Positions 4,370-37,211 of a stretch of DNA of 64,000 bases are shown piece by piece. How positions within the stretch are numbered: position 1 is the stretch's first letter; each line of letters begins with the position of its first letter. Source of the stretch: Batkoa obscura (taxonomy: Eukaryota); assembly GCA_030770535.1 (NCBI GenBank), contig JASVEC010000012.1, positions 124,001 through 188,000 of the forward strand, in the 5' to 3' direction. The notes under the pieces are model-generated. The model had not been told where the DNA came from. It saw nothing but the letters and a program-made list of their open reading frames with translations, and ran no database searches. The position numbers and the translations under genes were made by a program.

Positions 4370-5087
4370 ATGAAAAAGGTGGCCGACTTTATTTTAACGC
4401 TTTACAAGTATTTTTAATTTGATTATAAACAATAACAAAATTTATTTATACTTTGCTTAGATTACTCAATGAAAATTTATACAGTGGACTATTATCATGG
4501 GCTAATGATGGTCATAGCTTTTATATACATGACAGTAAAAAATTCGAAAACATCCTAAAAATGTATTTTAAGAGTTCAACATTGGGCTCTTTCTTCCGTC
4601 AATTAAATGTAAGTTTTAGTATTATTATTTTACAATTTATTTATTTATTTGTTTTTAGCTGTATCATTTTTATAGATTAAGTGATAGTAGGAAAAAGGAA
4701 TATAAGAATGTACACATAATTCAGTTTAAAAACGAGCACTTTATAAAAGACCATCCTGAATTGCTAACTAATATTCGCCGCCAGAAAGTTAAATGTTATA
4801 AGCCTAAAAAGAAAATAGGTCAAAATAACGATGATAGCACTAAGCTGGATAACTTGGAAAATCCTTTGTTATCATTTGATGCAAATAACGATAGTAATCA
4901 ATATATCGACAATAATAGCTGTGTTAATAGGCTTCAATACCCTTGTTATTATCCCTGTTATTATCCCTATAATTATAATTATAACTATAATTATAACAAT
5001 TACTACTACTACTATAATAGCTATACTTGTTATAAGCTAGATTTCGATTATAAATCTCTTCCTTCATTCCCAAATTTTTTATTGTAA
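4370..5087 (+). CDS. Small HSF-type DNA-binding domain protein with Tyr/Asn-rich tail (3 exons)
   Basis: Spliced product MKKVADFILTLYKLLNE..LLSWANDGHSF..YFKSSTLGSFFRQLN|LYHFYR..FKNEHFIKDHPELLTNIRR matches the HSF DBD signature; introns about 4408-4460 and 4609-4658. Confidence 0.88.
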
Positions 5088-12353: not shown

Positions 12354-13025
12354 TTAAAAAGAACTGAAATAAGTATCGAAAGAAAAAGTATCCGTTGGGA
12401 TGATATCATTAGGGGTATAGTCTACACTGTAGAAATTTAAAATGTTGCTATTGTAAGGGATAGTATTAATTAATGGAAATGGAATGCTGTAATCATAGTT
12501 ATAAAGGTAGCAAAGGGGTTCATAATCATTGCTAGGAGACACGTGTAATGTAGAAGGCGAAGAATTACAGCTAAATACATTATCTTGCACTGCTTCTTGT
12601 TTTAGCTGTTTCTTTTTGGGCTTGGATCTTCCTTTAGGATATCTCAATCTTTTAATTTTACTCAGAGTGTCCTCCGAGTTAACTTTAAAATGAGGATTCT
12701 TAAATTGACACCAGGAGTCAATATTGCCATCAGGGTTTAAGTTCTTTCCATCATTAACTCGAGTAAAACCATAAAGATTAAGTTGTCGAAAAAAGGAACC
12801 AGTACTATTATTTCGAAAATGTTTAGGAAGTATCGTTTGTCCAAAAGCTGAAGTGCTATTTACTGTGAATGTTTCACCTTGACCATCCCAATTTAGTATA
12901 TCTGGATAACTTTGTTCGCTCAAAAGTCTATTAATAATATCGTTAATAACAATATTCATTAAACAATTAAATTTGTAAACTTACCTATGAAGAGTTAAAA
13001 TAAAAGGAGAAATCTTCTGTTTCAT
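12354..13025 (-). CDS. Small HSF-type DNA-binding domain protein (2 exons)
   Basis: MKQKISPFILTLHR|LLSEQSYPDILNWDGQGETF..LPKHFRNNSTGSFFRQLNLYGF..FKNPHF; one GT-AG intron at the same position as intron 1 of the other two HSF genes. Confidence 0.9.
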
Positions 13026-16048: not shown

Positions 16049-17792
16049 TTAAAAGTTTTCTAAAAAAACGAATTAGTAAATGAATATAACTAAAAATTTT
16101 AACTTACCTTTTCCAAAATAAAACTTAGTGCCATTTTCATCTGGCTGATTATATTTGTTGGCAGCATTGTTCAACTGAGTAGACAAAATCCTAGGTCCGC
16201 AGAAAAAGACGCCAATATCAGTGGCTGGGTGAATATGACAAAGCCCAGTAAAAAGTTGATCCAAATTGGGACGTCCATAATGAGTCGGAGAACGTAATCC
16301 AGTTACTGCGTCTTGATGACCTTCTTGATCATTAAGGATAATATTTGCTGCTTCATCAGCCTTCAATCTACCAGTTAAATAAGTATGAATTTCTATAAAC
16401 TGCTGAATATCTTCTTCTTCTATAGCCTTCAATAAATCTTGAAACCATTCAAATGCCTACTATATAAATATTTATTTTTAAATGAAACTATATAATAAAT
16501 TACTTCTTTATCTCTACAAATCCATATAAAATATACTTTAGATAGCCTAGTTTTACTTTGGGGATAATTAACACGATACCTAAATTCAGAATAAATATTT
16601 GATTAATTATTCATTAAAAATATTACCATATAGATTTTAAAATCGAAGCAAAAGGAGTTACACCAATGCCAGCACCAACTAAAACGGCTACTTCATATTT
16701 GAACACGTCTTCAGAGGCAGAGCCAAATGGGCCATCCACCATAACTCTAGGCAAAACAGTGGATATGGAACTATTAGCTGTGTCACCATCACCCAAATCA
16801 CAGCCTAAAGATTTAGCCAAAGCAGTAGTAAAATTACCTACTACACGAACGTGCACTGATATATAATCTTCTTCTGGAGCAGACGTTAGTGTGAAAGGAT
16901 GCCATTGATGTAATGATACTGCGGGGCAACATAAAAATATCCATTGCCCAGCTTGTGTTTTTATCCCTTCTTTTTTCATTTGAATTTCTACTACGTTACT
17001 AGGGTGCAATACAACTTTGGATACCACGGTATGTTGGAATCCACGCAACTCTCTCAAAATACGCTCAACTAAATATAAAATTCCAGATAAAATCCAATAT
17101 TTATAAAATGAACCTCCATCTTTACAAAAGGGCGGACCATCTGGTTTTACTAAACAATAAACTCCATGAATCGAAAAACCAAAGAAGTAAACAGCAAATA
17201 GATGATGTGTATACCAAAACACTTCGAAATACTTCATCCTTACTTTGTTTAATGCAGTCGCTACTATTAATATCAATGCGAGTAACATAAGATGACCAGT
17301 CCATCCAGGTCCAGTAACGAAAGAATAAAAGGCCCAAGATGGCCCATTTTCAATTTTAACAGATAATTGGTAAAAGTTTACATAATGAGCGAATGTATGT
17401 AATAAAGAGAAGAATAGGATCGTCCATCCACAAATTTTATGAAATTCGACATTTTGATCAAATGGAATTACTCTTCCTAAAGGAGTAATACGCATTAAAG
17501 ATATCAAATTTCGGCACATAGGTAGCATTATGATTCCAGTATCCACATGTAAGTTGATTGCACTAGCACGAGCTATTGGTAATGTAATCCCTAACAAACC
17601 TCTTGCTACAGTAAACCTTTCGTCATAATAAAATTTTATGAAACCAACGGTAAACATTACAATTTGGGAAATAATCCATAACACGAAAAATATTACTGTC
17701 AAACCTTCATTTACCATCCATTTATCAAGCCTTTGGCGCCAGTTTGGTACAAACAAAGTTGGCTGAGGGTATCTTGCATAAGGATCTAACAT
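16049..17792 (-). CDS. noxA: NADPH oxidase, gp91phox/NoxA type
   Basis: Ferric-reductase TM region with heme His residues (FHK, HTFAH, YTHH), FAD motif HPFTLTS, DGPFG, GAGIGVTPFAS, FFCGP and a spliced C-terminal KENF; 3 introns. Confidence 0.95.
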
Positions 17793-18059
17793 TGCTTTTA
17801 TTAAATAGAAAAAAATAAAAAAATCAATAACATTTTTTTCTTATGGGTTTTGTTTGATTTTAAATAGCGTTATACAACTGTTAATATTATTTGTTTGTTT
17901 TTATTAACAGAAAAATTCCTTGAATTTAGTCTAAATCTGTTAGTTTAATTTTGAACCATTATTTTTAAGTAACTAACAGCATTAAAAATTTAACAATATA
18001 AAATCTATTCAACTACCGTTGCTTTGTGTGTTTGCCCCTTTGATCTTATTTTTTTATAC

Positions 18060-23874: not shown

Positions 23875-25387
23875 AAAGGAAACAGGAAATAAAAACCAAC
23901 AAGTAGCATTATTATCAACTATAGCTTCAGTATATTCTTTTGATGAATGTAAAAGTTTTGGATTTAATATAAGTAGAGATTAATATAATTATTTTTGAAT
24001 AATTAATAACGATAAAATACCAGCATTATAACCTATTATTAAAAATACAAAAAAAATCAACGAGCAAATTAAAATTATTATACAATATTTACTTAATAAT
24101 TCAACTATTTCATCAAGATTTAATTAAAAAAAAATAATGATAATAAATATTCATCAGATAATGTATATATATTAAATAAAAGTAAAAAAATGATATATAG
24201 TAAATATTTTAATGATTTAAAAGATAAAGCAGTAGCTAGGTCAACATTTTTTAAATATATACCAAATAATTTTAAAAATCCAGCAAGAAAAACAGATTTA
24301 TGTAATATATGTGCCCAGTATACAGTTAGAAAAAAGTTGTTTGAAAATAAAACAAATACAGCGACAAAAAATAAAGCAGAGATAGAGGAATATTTTAATA
24401 AAGAAAAAAGGTTATATAAATTACATGAATTCTGTGTTGATACTCAAAAAAACATACTTAATGAAACTATTGAAAAATTAAATAACAAAAGTTGTATAAT
24501 AATTTTAGACTTTAAACAAAATATGGAAATAGGAACAAGACCAGATCCAATAAACCTAGATCATTATAATAAACAAGCCATATCAGTATTAAAGTTTGGC
24601 GTTTTGTATTTGAAAAATGATAAAACAACAGGCAAAGTTTATTTTGATTATTTATCTGAAATATTAAATCATGATTCAGCATATGCAGGAGATTGTTTAA
24701 TTGATTTAATATCTAAAGAGCCTTTGTTTAAAAAGTTTACAAAAATTAATATATGGGCAGATACAGGATATCATTTTAAATCTCAAGAGTTTTTACACTA
24801 TATATTTGAAGAAATTTACAAAATAAATAGTAGTTTAGATATTGATCTTAATTTTTTTGCTGAGCATCATGAAAAAAGTATAGTTGACGGACATTTTGGA
24901 AATCCCTTACAATGAAAAAATAGTTTTGAAGCATTAGGTAAAATAGAAGATATTAATCAATTAATTTCAAAATTTGAGATTTTTATTTTTGAACATAATA
25001 GAATTAATAACTCAACTGTCAATAATGGGAAAACATGAGGATGTTTTTTTTGGTTTCATTACTTTTTCCATTTTTAAGCGCTATTTGAGCGGAAAAATTG
25101 TTAGTAAAATTCTTAAAAAAAAAATATCCCCATATATAATTTTCAAAAAAGTACGAGAAAAACAAAAACATAATAAAAACAATAGAAATACAAGGTATCA
25201 AAAAGTGTTTACATTTTATCAAACGTGATAATAAACTACACTGTTATCCAGTATCTGATAGATCAAAAAAAAGCGATATAATTACAATTAAAGTTATAGA
25301 GTCTATAGAGAATACAAAAATTAAAAGATCAACCCCAGCTTATCTTACAAAAATAACTGAAAACTTAAAAGTTTCAATATTTGGTAA
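23875..25387 (+). pseudogene. Disrupted transposase (core ORF 24190-24915)
   Basis: Cys motif TDLCNIC; acidic triad in IILDFKQN, IWADTGYHFKS and FFAEHHEKSIVDGHFG; premature TGA at 24913, frameshifts, and MITE/LTR insertions. Confidence 0.8.
25037..25131 (-). mobile_element. MITE family A copy inside the transposase
   Basis: Consensus match; the homologous site in the 8830-10520 copy is empty. Confidence 0.9.
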
Positions 25388-28469: not shown

Positions 28470-29277
28470 ATGAAAAGTCCAAAGATTGCACTCTTTGTAT
28501 TAAAGCTATATGAGTAAATTACTTAACTATATTATATCATAGGTATTAATCAGCTATATAGAATGCTTTCTGATGAAAAATACTCCTCATTGTTGTCCTG
28601 GGGCCCTACAGGAAAAAGTTTTATGATCCTCAACGTCAGTGAATTTAAGGAAATTCTTAGTTTTCATTTTAAAAGTCGAAATTTGGGCTCGTTCTTCCGT
28701 CAGCTTAATGTAAAGCATTATCTCTATTACATTATTATTACTAATTAGATTATAGCTTTACAACTTTTACCGCATCAGTGATGGACGGAGGAAAGAGTGT
28801 AAAAAGCTCTCATATGCTCAATTTTCTCATGAGTATTTTATAAAAGATCAGTCTGATTTGCTTTTCAAAGTAAAAAGGCAAAAGGTGAAATACTCTAATT
28901 TAACAAAAGCACGATTACCGACTCAATCTATTACATCTAAAACTTCAATCAAAAGTGAAGAACTGGAACCAAGTTTGGAAATTGAAGAAACACCTTTTGA
29001 AGCTTGCTTGAAAAGCCATGCTTTAAGCTCTTACTATCAAGACGAGTATAATGCTCAAAATGTTGCCTCTCCACCGTTCTACTATATAGATTCCTCTAAC
29101 AACGAGGATGAATTCTCCAATATACAGCCTTATTATGAATATCATAGTCCTTTTTACTACTCAATTGAGTACTACAATTCATTATATAATGCGAGCTATT
29201 TATATCCTGCTTCTTATTGCGACTATCACAACTCCAACGGGAACGTCTTATATTATGATTCAACATCCTTTACATAA
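28470..29277 (+). CDS. Small HSF-type DNA-binding domain protein with Tyr-rich tail (3 exons)
   Basis: MKSPKIALFVLKLYE|MLSDEKYSSLLSWGPTGKSF..HFKSRNLGSFFRQLN|LYNFYRISDGR..FSHEYFIKDQSDLLFKVKR; same two intron positions as the 4370 gene; TATATAAA at about 28401. Confidence 0.9.
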
Positions 29278-32055: not shown

Positions 32056-32153
32056 GGGGATGTATTTTTTTGTTTAAGGACTTTACTAACAATCTTTCCG
32101 CTCAAATAGCGCTTAAAAAATGGGAAAAATAATGAAGCCAAAAAAACACTCTC
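32056..32153 (+). mobile_element. MITE family A copy
   Basis: Consensus match; ATAT/ATAT TSD. Confidence 0.9.
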
Positions 32154-32432: not shown

Positions 32433-33539
<1,107 letters not shown>

Positions 33540-34350: not shown

Positions 34351-36190
34351 TTATAAATGACCATCATTGGAAACGGTTGGGAACTCGGAATTGACTACAC
34401 CAAGATGAAGAATTCTATTACCAGATTGACAAACTGGGTCCATGTTTTTACCCACAACAATGCCATCTTCTGGTGCAAAATATGTTTCTTCAAGATTCCC
34501 AAAGATATTGTGTAATGTAGCAATTGGTTCATTCTTTTTAACCCATGTATTAACATCTGGAAGTACAGTTAAAATACCTCCTCTAGATGCAAAAATCCAA
34601 TAAGATTTAGCACATATTACTGGTGCGTATTCGGATGGTGTCAAAGTACCATCTTCATTAATCATTTGTAAATGTGACATAATGTTAGTTACTCCCATCA
34701 ATGCTGATCTTATAAATCTTTTTTGGAATCTAGAAGGATCTCCAATTTCTACAGTAATTGCTGGTATCCCTAATTCCATGGCTGCTCCTCTAAGTGAACC
34801 ATCTGGAGAAGTATTATGTACAATGATCTGAGGGTTTTGTAATTGTGCCATATTTCTGGTTTTTGAATCCATCATATTAGCTCTAACATACAAACTATTA
34901 ACTCTTCCTCGTGATGCTGTATGTAAATCGAGTAAATACTCGATTTTATTTATTATTCGGTCCATCAAATTATAAGAATATACCTGTGGTCTGGATCCGT
35001 TCTTTTTTCTAATTAAATAATGTAAATGACCAACCTACAAATATCAAATATATTTTACCCTGGCATTAACCTATTTAAATCTTGTCCATCATAAGTTCTC
35101 TGACTTGTTAAATAACCTGGAACATTTGCTACTGGAACAGCGACAATAATTCCATGTAAATTGGATGTTTTGATTTCACGGAATAATCGATGTATCAAAG
35201 GAATTCCGTTTAATTCATTTCCATGTAATGCTGCAGTAATGCCTAAAATTGGACCAGGTTTAACACCCTAAGAAATAGTTCGGTATGGTATATTTAATAT
35301 TTAGATTGTAAACTCACTTTGGCTACAATAACTGGAACTTTAATCGGAAGTGATAAACCATCTTCAGCAACTACTACCCAAAGCCTTGAGATCCTATCAC
35401 CTGGTAAAGCATCTAAATCTAAATTAGTTACAGTAGGAACCACGGGTTCAACTGGATGGATATCTTCCGTCGGAGCTAATGGAGCAGGTGGAACATGAGT
35501 TCTCCAAACCTGTTTAGCTTCAAACAACATACTTTCATCTTTTTCACTAGCAACGAAGGAACAATTAGTAACTAATGGCCACCAATCTTCTCTTATATTG
35601 GTATCAATATGTTTATCAAATTTTTTCAATATTTTTTGAAACCCAGTAATATTTGTATTGGTAAACTCTAAAAATTAATATGACTTTAAATAGTTAAAAT
35701 AGTTACCGAATAAATATTCTAATTGTTGTAGCAATTTTGAAAAATCTTGTCGCCTAGTAAATTGTTATTTATTGTTTTAAAATCAGGAATTTTTTACCAT
35801 CTATTTGTTTCATTTTGAGTCATTTCATCACTCCACTACCAAATATTTTAATATCATAAATAAAATATATAAAAATAGTCTTACAATACTCCTTAAGCTA
35901 TTTAGTCTTTCTCTTAATTCATTTTCTTTTACTTTATATCTATCGTCTACTTTATGTAATTCTTCTAATAAAAGCTCCTTAAACTCCTTCATCAAATCAT
36001 CTTTTACTTCATCGCTTTTAACGCTATCTTCATCATATTATTAGAATAAGGCATATAAACAGATTAAATCTAGCTTACCATTATAAGTGACCTCATACTC
36101 TTTAATTGCTTTTTTTAAAAGTTTATAATCGATATAATAAATAGCCCAAGTGGGTATTGACCTTAAGGCTAACTGTTTAGCAAATTTCAT
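34351..36190 (-). CDS. SPX domain fused to a succinylglutamate desuccinylase/aspartoacylase (M14 AstE/AspA-like) domain, 518 aa
   Basis: Exons 36190-36079, 36027-35885, 35835-35798, 35753-35707, 35667-35318, 35267-35059 and 35008-34351 total 1557 nt in one frame. SPX motifs MKFAKQL..W..YIDYKLLKK, EELHKVDDRY, NITGFQKILKKFDKH; M14 motifs HGNE, DLNR, DLHT, TVEIG. Confidence 0.9.
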
Positions 36191-36858: not shown

Positions 36859-36952
36859 GAAGGTGTTTTTTTTTGGTTTCATCACTTTTTCCGTTTTTTT
36901 GAGCGCTATTTGAGTGGAAAAATTGTTAGTAAAATTTAGGTAAAAAAATATA
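36859..36952 (-). mobile_element. MITE family A copy, one end decayed
   Basis: Core ttggtttcatcactttttcc..gcgctatttgagtggaaaaattgttagtaaa. Confidence 0.8.
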
Positions 36953-36997
36953 TGGTGATATCCTTTTTAAGTCTTGTGAAAAATAAGAAGTTTGAGC

Positions 36998-37071
36998 GCT
37001 CGTATGGCGCAATTGGCTAGCGCGTCCGATTGTTAATCGGGAGGTTACTGATTCGATCCCAGTTATGAGCG
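36998..37071 (+). tRNA. tRNA-Asn(GTT), possibly a pseudogene
   Basis: Acceptor stem GCTCGTA/TATGAGC; D-arm GCGC/GCGC; anticodon arm TCCGA-TTGTTAA-TCGGG; T-loop TTCGATC, but with A at position 53 opposite C61. Confidence 0.8.
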
Positions 37072-37118
37072 TAAATGATCAATTCGATGTGAATAATTTT
37101 TTGTTTTGTCTAAAATAG

Positions 37119-37211
37119 GGGGATGTCTCTTTTCTTTAGGAAATTTACTAACATATTTTCCACTCAAATAGCGCTTAAAAATGGTAAAAGTGAAGTCAAA
37201 AAAACACTCCC
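37119..37211 (+). mobile_element. MITE family A copy
   Basis: Consensus match; ATAG/ATAG TSD. Confidence 0.88.

What the first reader, a model, noticed from the sequence alone, without database searches (positions are those of the whole stretch)
34351..36190. SPX phosphate-sensor domain fused to an intact M14 AstE/AspA-type deacylase
Seen in sequence: seven exons splice into one 518-aa frame. The SPX C-terminal motif (GFQKILKKFDKH) and the start of the enzyme domain lie on the same exon, joined by a Pro-rich linker, so this is not two neighbouring genes merged by a model. The SPX Tyr/Lys ligand clusters (YIDYKLLKK, KILKKFDK) are intact. The enzyme keeps its Zn ligands (HGNE, DLH), the NR carboxylate-binding pair, the catalytic Glu (TVEIG) and a C-terminal barrel-sandwich subdomain. 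Established: SPX domains bind inositol pyrophosphates and are known fused to Pi transporters, EXS proteins, VTC subunits, Gde1, Pho81 and RING ligases, while this deacylase architecture is mostly known from bacteria. I do not know of a characterised SPX-M14 fusion. Inference: a phosphate-status-regulated amidohydrolase or peptidase, possibly from a horizontally acquired gene that gained introns and a eukaryotic sensor. The ORF track misses it because the SPX part is split over small exons.
Basis: partly seen in the sequence, partly recalled or inferred. Interest (0 to 1): 0.9.

Follow-up and report, generated by a model that had tools for sequence, protein, structure and literature searches.

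The report
Phosphate sensor fused to zinc hydrolase
This fungal gene joins a phosphate-status sensor domain (SPX) to a zinc enzyme predicted to cut amide bonds; the design is shared by early-branching fungi and several protists, we found no study of it, and it likely puts the breakdown of an unknown small compound, probably made by an unnamed partner ligase, under phosphate control.

Summary
All six GT-AG introns are skipped in contigs from three studies, and single contigs cross all seven exons. The spliced frame is 518 aa and differs at 7 positions from a Neoconidiobolus thromboides protein. SPX and AstE_AspA_cat both pass Pfam cut-offs. Ligand and catalytic residues are conserved. This is not a recent transfer. 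The fusion occurs in 95 of 120 listed homologues: early-branching fungi, Pneumocystis, Amoebozoa and Rhizaria, plus a stramenopile. It fails the AstE, AspA and DoeB family cut-offs. Its closest bacterial relatives co-occur almost perfectly with an unnamed, permuted ATP-grasp ligase: 32 of 33 ligase-bearing genomes among 201 Myxococcota. That ligase is also present in N. thromboides and Pneumocystis. Best reading, inferred: inositol-pyrophosphate binding to SPX gates hydrolysis of the ligase's small acidic amide product. Substrate and regulation are untested. Ten paper searches found no description. This scan noted the same fusion once before, on another genome (e1-7322260).

The parts
36079..36190 (-). 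Exon 1, aa 1-37: SPX N-terminus with Y22 and K26
   Evidence: Joint; Pfam SPX E 4e-9
35885..36027 (-). Exon 2, aa 38-85: SPX long helix
   Evidence: Joints; Pfam SPX E 3e-5, below cut-off alone
35798..35835 (-). Exon 3, 38 nt, SPX
   Evidence: Joints
35707..35753 (-). Exon 4, 47 nt, SPX
   Evidence: Joints
35318..35667 (-). Exon 5, aa 114-230: SPX lysine cluster (K125, K128, K129, K132), Pro-rich linker (low confidence 176-186) and first strands of the enzyme
35059..35267 (-). Exon 6, aa 231-300: zinc ligands H245 and E248; carboxylate-binding R287, N295, R296
   Evidence: Pfam AstE_AspA_cat E 6e-16; conservation
34351..35008 (-). Exon 7, aa 300-518 and stop: zinc ligand H329, catalytic E387, basic pocket residues (R335, R342, H364, R373), C-terminal beta subdomain and the conserved DGH tail

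Best explanation
The gene encodes one protein with an N-terminal SPX domain and an AstE/AspA-type zinc amidohydrolase domain, and it likely hydrolyses a small acidic amide made by a co-inherited, unnamed ATP-grasp ligase, with inositol pyrophosphate binding to SPX predicted to switch that breakdown according to phosphate status. Shown here: the gene structure, both domains, intact ligand and catalytic residues, wide conservation, and tight co-occurrence of enzyme and ligase in bacteria. Inferred: (1) the zinc site releases a terminal amino acid from an N-acyl or isopeptide bond, as in EutE, CphZ and ASPA; (2) that amino acid is acidic, because the pocket is invariantly basic; (3) the substrate is the ligase's product, probably a gamma-glutamyl or beta-aspartyl type amide; (4) SPX acts on its own enzyme domain. 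My guess on direction is activation when phosphate is plentiful, releasing a store built up under phosphate limitation. The conserved C-terminal tail may be part of the gate. Direction and tail role are the weakest steps.
For: Pfam SPX 71.1 bits (cut-off 27.8) and AstE_AspA_cat 117.4 (cut-off 25) on P0001. Model pLDDT 92.7. Enzyme part matches 3cdx Z 35.1 (rmsd 2.1, 307 aligned), EutE Z 34.0 and CphZ Z 28.3; SPX part matches XPR1 SPX Z 21.2. All six SPX ligand residues are kept in 77 of 89 homologues with both SPX ends detected. H245, E248, R287, N295, R296, H329 and E387 are kept in 46 of 46 clade rows. R335, R342, R373 and H501 are invariant in SPX, HutD and bacterial rows. R373 aligns without gaps to an Asp in EutE, whose substrate has an amine side chain. 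The ligase lies within 5 kb in 53 of 80 bacterial loci and elsewhere in the genome for 26 of the other 27. Among 201 Myxococcota genomes, 33 have the ligase, 32 have an orthologue-grade enzyme, and all 32 overlap. Among 301 Bacteroidota, 4 have the ligase, 5 have the enzyme, and 4 overlap. The ligase occurs in N. thromboides, Pneumocystis, Mortierellaceae, Glomeromycota and chytrids. It folds as a permuted ATP-grasp, best match 3k1t Z 17.1. SPX binds inositol pyrophosphates and controls VTC (PMC7381174, passages).
Against: No activity, binding or substrate was measured. pTM is 0.65 and the linker is low-confidence, so SPX docking on the enzyme is not shown. Even for Gde1 the regulatory role of SPX was unconfirmed as of PMC7381174 (passages). 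Eukaryotic co-occurrence comes from two lists each cut at 120 rows. Kickxellales carry the fusion but are not among the 120 listed ligase hits, so their status is unknown. Mucorales have the ligase and no listed SPX fusion; the two checked have a HutD-fused paralogue instead, so SPX is not required for the pathway. Bacterial genomes are related to each other, and the orthologue cut-off (a gap between 43% or more and 36% or less identity) was chosen. Bacterial relatives mostly replace R296 (His in 55 of 80), so their substrate may differ. In bacteria a second, GshB-like ligase is often adjacent (42 of 80 loci); I did not test for it in eukaryotes.
Confidence: 0.45

Rival explanations
1. The substrate itself carries phosphate, for example an amide of a phosphorylated amino acid or amino alcohol. 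The ligase and hydrolase would then store and release phosphorus, and SPX would work as it is expected to in Gde1.
For: The yeast SPX proteins listed in PMC7381174 move, store, recover or signal phosphate (passages). The invariant Arg/His-rich pocket would fit a phosphate as well as a carboxylate. PPK2 genes lie in 9 of 80 bacterial loci.
Against: Most PPK2 loci are Phaeodactylibacter relatives, so they are not independent. The sister paralogue carries HutD rather than SPX, which argues the chemistry is not tied to phosphate. No top fold neighbour acts on a phosphorylated substrate.
Confidence: 0.15
2. The ligase adds glutamate-type tags to proteins, as RimK or tubulin glutamylases do, and the SPX enzyme is a phosphate-controlled tag remover.
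For: The pocket suits an acidic C-terminal residue. RimK/LysX-type ligases lie in some bacterial loci and are second-rank fold neighbours of the ligase (ArgX Z 14.0). CCP5 appears among lower Foldseek hits.
Against: The best fold neighbours of both proteins act on small molecules. [quoted passage not shown]
Confidence: 0.13
3. The enzyme and substrate are as in the best reading, but SPX works in trans. It would control a partner, location or turnover of the protein, possibly by binding the ligase, and not the catalytic rate.
For: SPX with 5-IP7 acts as glue between proteins in Cryptococcus Pho81 (PMC7587432, passages). The model leaves the SPX position loose.
Against: The SPX clade keeps its own invariant C-terminal tail (42 of 47 rows), which suggests coupling inside the protein or oligomer. 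That is only a hint.
Confidence: 0.17
4. In eukaryotes the enzyme has been uncoupled from the ligase and is a general N-acyl-aspartate or N-acyl-glutamate deacylase.
For: The two genes are not neighbours in this window (tblastn negative). The family includes AspA and AstE. R296 differs between eukaryotic and most bacterial members.
Against: Scores are far below the AstE, AspA and DoeB cut-offs. The other pocket residues are shared with the ligase-linked bacterial enzymes. Both genes persist in the genus Pneumocystis, whose genome is known to be reduced (recalled).
Confidence: 0.1

Closest known systems
SPX-enzyme fusions: fungal Gde1 (SPX-ankyrin-glycerophosphodiesterase) and Vtc4 (SPX-TTM polyphosphate polymerase)
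   Same: N-terminal SPX domain with an intact basic ligand patch, fused to a catalytic domain (PMC7381174 passages).
   Different: The catalytic domain is an M14-type zinc amidohydrolase with no known link to phosphate. No paper on this pairing was found.
EutE/DoeB N-acetyl-diaminobutyrate deacetylase (PDB 6twm, 6twl) and 3cdx/3na6
   Same: Same two-domain fold (Z 31-35, about 20% identity), H-E-H zinc site, R/N/R carboxylate site and catalytic Glu.
   Different: 66 bits against a cut-off of 403 for TIGR02994. Arg stands where EutE has Asp. EutE has no SPX.
CphZ/AotO cyanophycin dipeptide hydrolase (PDB 8ein, 8eip; PMC9974463)
   Same: Same fold (Z 28) and catalytic set; shows that this fold can split an isopeptide made by an ATP-grasp-type system.
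   Different: 15% identity, below the paper's 30% threshold. Cyanophycin synthetase is in only 5 of 39 ligase/enzyme genomes tested.
Aspartoacylase (ASPA) and succinylglutamate desuccinylase (AstE)
   Same: Same Pfam family; they act on acidic amino acids, and ASPA R168 is proposed to bind the side-chain carboxyl (PMC10998430 passages).
   Different: Far below both NCBIfam cut-offs; weaker fold match (AstE Z 19-21, rmsd 4.4-5.1).
For the partner ligase: ATP-grasp-type GshA (PDB 3k1t), eukaryotic glutathione synthetase, and GspSA synthetase/amidase
   Same: Permuted ATP-grasp fold; GspSA is a known make-and-break amide pair (recalled).
   Different: 13% identity to 3k1t. None of 59 members hit PF08886, and no Pfam family scored better than E 0.01.

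Membership tests
SPX domain | Pfam PF03105 above curated cut-off | tested here: met
   71.1 bits against 27.8 on P0001
SPX domain | N-terminal helical bundle matching solved SPX domains | tested here: met
   Residues 1-176 match XPR1 SPX Z 21.2, rmsd 1.4-1.9, and Gde1 SPX Z 20.2
SPX domain | Tyr/Lys ligand patch (K i, i+3, i+7 spacing as in CnPho81 K221/224/228, PMC7587432; Y22/K26 assignment recalled from Wild et al. 2016, not read) | tested here: met
   Y22, K26, K125, K128, K129, K132 present; all six kept in 77 of 89 homologues
SPX domain | Binds inositol polyphosphates and regulates its effector | not testable with these tools
   Needs binding and activity assays
AstE/AspA family (M14-like zinc amidohydrolases) | PF24827 above cut-off and two-domain fold | tested here: met
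   117.4 bits against 25; Z 35.1 to 3cdx
AstE/AspA family (M14-like zinc amidohydrolases) | H-E-H zinc triad, R/N/R carboxylate site, catalytic Glu (as defined for CphZ and ASPA in PMC9974463, PMC10998430) | tested here: met
   H245, E248, H329, R287, N295, R296, E387 in 46 of 46 clade rows
Succinylglutamate desuccinylase AstE (TIGR03242) | Equivalog score cut-off | tested here: not met
   21 bits against 305.65
Aspartoacylase (NF002601) | Equivalog score cut-off | tested here: not met
   29.8 bits against 180
DoeB/EutE (TIGR02994) | Equivalog score cut-off | tested here: not met
   66.2 bits against 402.7
CphZ | Over 30% identity to AbCphZ at over 70% coverage (PMC9974463) | tested here: not met
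   15% identity in the structural alignment; no phmmer hit to CphZ at E 0.001
CphZ | Acidic D222/E223 pocket for Arg or Lys | tested here: inconclusive
   No residue-level alignment to CphZ was obtained; the conserved residues in this region are basic
Partner ligase as ATP-grasp-type GshA (PF08886) | Pfam match | tested here: not met
   0 of 59 members matched at E up to 5, although 3k1t is the best fold match

The most novel reading that the evidence does not exclude
Early eukaryotes ran an unrecognised make-and-break metabolite cycle, shared with myxobacteria and Saprospiraceae. An orphan permuted ATP-grasp ligase builds a small acidic amide store or signal. A zinc hydrolase releases it, and exists in two ancient versions wired to different nutrient sensors (SPX for phosphate, HutD for another cue), each gated by its own invariant C-terminal tail. 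It would be an inositol-pyrophosphate-controlled amide hydrolase linking phosphate status directly to amino-acid or nitrogen storage, kept even in Pneumocystis and absent from the model yeasts where SPX biology was worked out.
Probability: 0.3. Interest if true: 0.87.

Novelty: new variant of a known kind. Interest (0 to 1): 0.72.

Why it matters
Known SPX effectors transport, store, recover or signal phosphate. An SPX-gated amide hydrolase would extend inositol pyrophosphate control to amide and amino-acid metabolism across a wide part of the eukaryote tree. It also gives a handle on a highly conserved ligase family with no Pfam model: the two enzymes can be expressed together and the product found by mass spectrometry. 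As a soluble two-domain enzyme it could be a simple model for how SPX passes on a ligand signal.

Tried and rejected
Gene-model merger: rejected by the spliced contigs and shared exon 5. Recent fungus-specific transfer from Myxococcota/Planctomycetota: rejected at p-AU 0.028 on a 41-row quick tree; other donors were not tested. Cyanophycin link: CphA in 5 of 39 genomes. Ligase as a stand-in for glutathione GshA: PF04262 is missing in 39 of 39 genomes, but a strong GCS2-type ligase is present in 30 of the 31 Myxococcota among them, so a stand-in is not needed there; 7 of the 8 Bacteroidota have only weak or no GCS2 hits, so it stays open for them. Polyamine link, suggested by the neighbouring spermidine synthase gene and by note e1-2194093: polyamine genes were found in 7 of 80 loci using five queries, too few to adopt. 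GshB-like co-occurrence scan was uninformative because 172 of 201 genomes matched. The SPX-on-enzyme complex prediction gave no verdict. No run is on record as RNA. The ESM Atlas added no named family for the fusion and only unnamed clusters at the top for the ligase. No whole genome is held for the window, so the ligase was not checked in this assembly itself. Paper searches returned nothing; 24, 39, 49, 51, 52, 82, 90 and 97 were seen as listings and showed no report of the fusion. PMC11291939 (horizontal transfer in early-diverging fungi) has none of the terms in its text or its 2 held supplements. The EutE structure paper is not held, so the role of EutE Asp195 is unverified. P0273, an apparent ligase-hydrolase fusion in EukProt, looks like a mis-called bacterial contaminant and was not used. 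I first grouped P0152 with the SPX clade; the careful tree places it outside.

Full report
Observation. The window is AT-rich fungal DNA. The gene runs on the minus strand from 36190 to 34351. Laying public contigs on it gave six joints, each removing a GT...AG intron of 39-51 nt. The eight runs come from three studies. None is on record as RNA, but their contigs lack the introns. One contig each in X5 and X8 covers all seven exons in order. Splicing gives one 518-aa frame, which differs at 7 positions from NCBI protein P0001 of Neoconidiobolus thromboides. Exon 5 carries both the SPX lysine motif and the first enzyme strands, so the fusion is not a merger of two genes.

Domains. P0001 scores 71.1 bits on Pfam SPX and 117.4 on AstE_AspA_cat, both above cut-off. 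The AlphaFold2 model has pLDDT 92.7 and pTM 0.65, with a low-confidence linker at 176-186. Residues 1-176 match XPR1 SPX at Z 21.2. Residues 192-508 match 3cdx (Z 35.1), EutE (34.0) and CphZ (28.3). Of 128 homologues examined, 89 had both SPX ends detected, and 77 of those keep all six ligand-patch residues; 4 of the 12 exceptions are alignment gaps. The zinc triad, carboxylate site and catalytic Glu are invariant in 46 of 46 clade rows. The protein is far below the AstE, AspA and DoeB cut-offs, so it belongs to the wider family but is none of those enzymes.

Distribution and origin. A search with the last exon, limited to proteins of 383-2000 aa, gave 145 hits. Of the 120 listed, 95 carry both Pfam domains; several of the rest are cut at the N-terminus and keep part of the SPX motif. 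Named carriers include Zoopagomycota, Mortierellaceae, Glomeromycota, chytrids, Pneumocystis, Saitoella, Plasmodiophora, Spongospora and Balamuthia, Paulinella and Mucochytrium. No Mucorales or model yeasts were among the listed rows; that is not a test of absence. In an IQ-TREE tree of the enzyme part (79 rows picked from 188), fungi form one group (100/100), Fonticula joins them (93/81), and 38 SPX-type rows group at 80/97, which is not strong support. A HutD-fused paralogue forms its own group (100/99), with members in Mucorales, chytrids, Rozella and Acanthamoeba. Myxococcota and Planctomycetota group at 99/94. The order among these three groups is unresolved. Forcing fungi with the Myxococcota group is rejected at p-AU 0.028 (41 rows, quick tree). 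The fusion is therefore old, or spread between eukaryotes, and the direction of any bacterial transfer is not shown.

Partner. I fetched the 80 best of 558 bacterial loci, from a scan that stopped about halfway. In 53 of them an unnamed protein of about 480 aa lies within 5 kb, on the same strand in 45; a GshB/RimK-like ligase lies in 42. For the other 27 loci, 26 have the unnamed protein elsewhere in the genome. In an even sample of 201 Myxococcota genomes, 33 have it. An orthologue-grade enzyme (43% identity or more, two of them partial) is in 32 genomes, all among the 33. The 37 genomes with only distant relatives (27-36%) have no ligase. I set that cut after seeing the gap, and the genomes are related to each other. 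In 301 Bacteroidota the counts are 4 and 5, with all 4 overlapping. The fungal homologue P0344 of N. thromboides models well (pTM 0.82). It matches permuted ATP-grasp ligases: 3k1t best at Z 17.1, rmsd 4.0, 328 aligned, and glutathione synthetases by Foldseek. It has no Pfam family. Homologues 64-80% identical to the fungal query occur in Mucorales, Mortierellaceae, Glomeromycota, chytrids, Rozella and Pneumocystis murina (120 listed of 4346). Many species appear in both lists, but both lists are truncated, so eukaryotic co-occurrence is indicated and not measured.

Substrate clues. R335, R342, R373 and H501 are invariant across SPX, HutD and bacterial rows, and H364 and R498 nearly so. R335 was part of the pattern that selected the bacterial loci; the others were not. 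R373 aligns without gaps to Asp195 of EutE, whose substrate has an amine side chain, so an acidic leaving residue is likely. I could not read the EutE paper to confirm that Asp195 touches substrate. ASPA is proposed to use R168 for the side-chain carboxyl (PMC10998430, passages), and CphZ uses an acidic pair for Arg (PMC9974463, passages). Against simple transfer of function, R296 is His in 55 of 80 bacterial rows. The SPX clade ends in a DGH motif in 42 of 47 rows, and the HutD clade ends in an ENY-like motif in 9 of 10. Such fixed C-termini on a carboxypeptidase fold suggest a gate, but this is untested.

Mechanism. I commit to a make-and-break pair. The ligase forms a small acidic amide; this enzyme hydrolyses it; inositol pyrophosphate on SPX sets the rate, most likely switching it on when phosphate is plentiful (confidence 0.45). 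SPX binding of inositol pyrophosphates and control of VTC are established, while the SPX role in Gde1 was unconfirmed (PMC7381174, passages). Rivals are SPX acting in trans (0.17), a phosphorylated substrate (0.15), protein tag removal (0.13) and an uncoupled general deacylase (0.10). Cyanophycin, stand-in glutathione synthesis and polyamine links were tested and got little support.

Novelty. Databases label these proteins only as hypothetical or SPX domain-containing. Ten full-text searches of the open library found no description. Subscription journals, including the main SPX structure papers and their supplements, were not searchable, and an architecture table there could list this fusion. 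SPX-enzyme fusions and ligase/amidase pairs are known kinds, so I rate this a new variant. Earlier notes of this scan saw the same fusion on another genome and the bacterial ligase-deacylase cassette several times. They are not independent support. In the few lines shown to me, none of them linked the SPX fusion to the ligase.

Noticed in passing
window 32433-33500 (- strand): Spermidine synthase gene about 850 nt downstream on the same strand (Pfam PF01564); four introns seen as joints. No evidence that the adjacency is conserved.
   Followed up: partly
window 36896-36936, 37141-37181 and 32063-32149: A short repeat in three copies; two inverted copies flank tRNA-Asn at 36997-37072. Many contigs with loose ends pile up on it, which suggests a dispersed small element.
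   Followed up: partly
P0128, P0129, P0147, P0149, P0400: A paralogue of the enzyme fused to a HutD domain, with its own fixed C-terminal motif, in Mucorales, chytrids, Rozella and Acanthamoeba (the stored Rozella protein is short and was not scanned for HutD). Chytridium lagenaria has both versions.
   Followed up: partly
P0339, P0392: The orphan ligase is annotated in two sciarid flies (Pseudolycoriella hygida on a 156-Mb contig, Bradysia odoriphaga) at 64-66% identity to the fungal query: possible transfer or contamination.
   Followed up: no
P0152: Sporothrix eucalyptigena has a short copy with no SPX signal that still ends in the DGH tail.
   Followed up: no
L061:890-2416, L061:4048-4680, L061:108-887: A GNAT/carbon-nitrogen hydrolase fusion (10 of 80 loci), a SET-domain gene (13) and PPK2 (9) recur near the bacterial enzyme, mostly in Phaeodactylibacter relatives.
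   Followed up: partly
window 4659-5087, 12354-12980, 28756-29277: Three ORFs that look like heat-shock-factor-type DNA-binding domains (recognised from recall, not scanned).
   Followed up: no
window 24124-24915: A 263-aa ORF that looks like a transposase remnant by eye; no Pfam hit at E 1e-4.
   Followed up: partly
window 16073-17840 (- strand): ORFs resembling an NADPH oxidase (recalled; not scanned).
   Followed up: no
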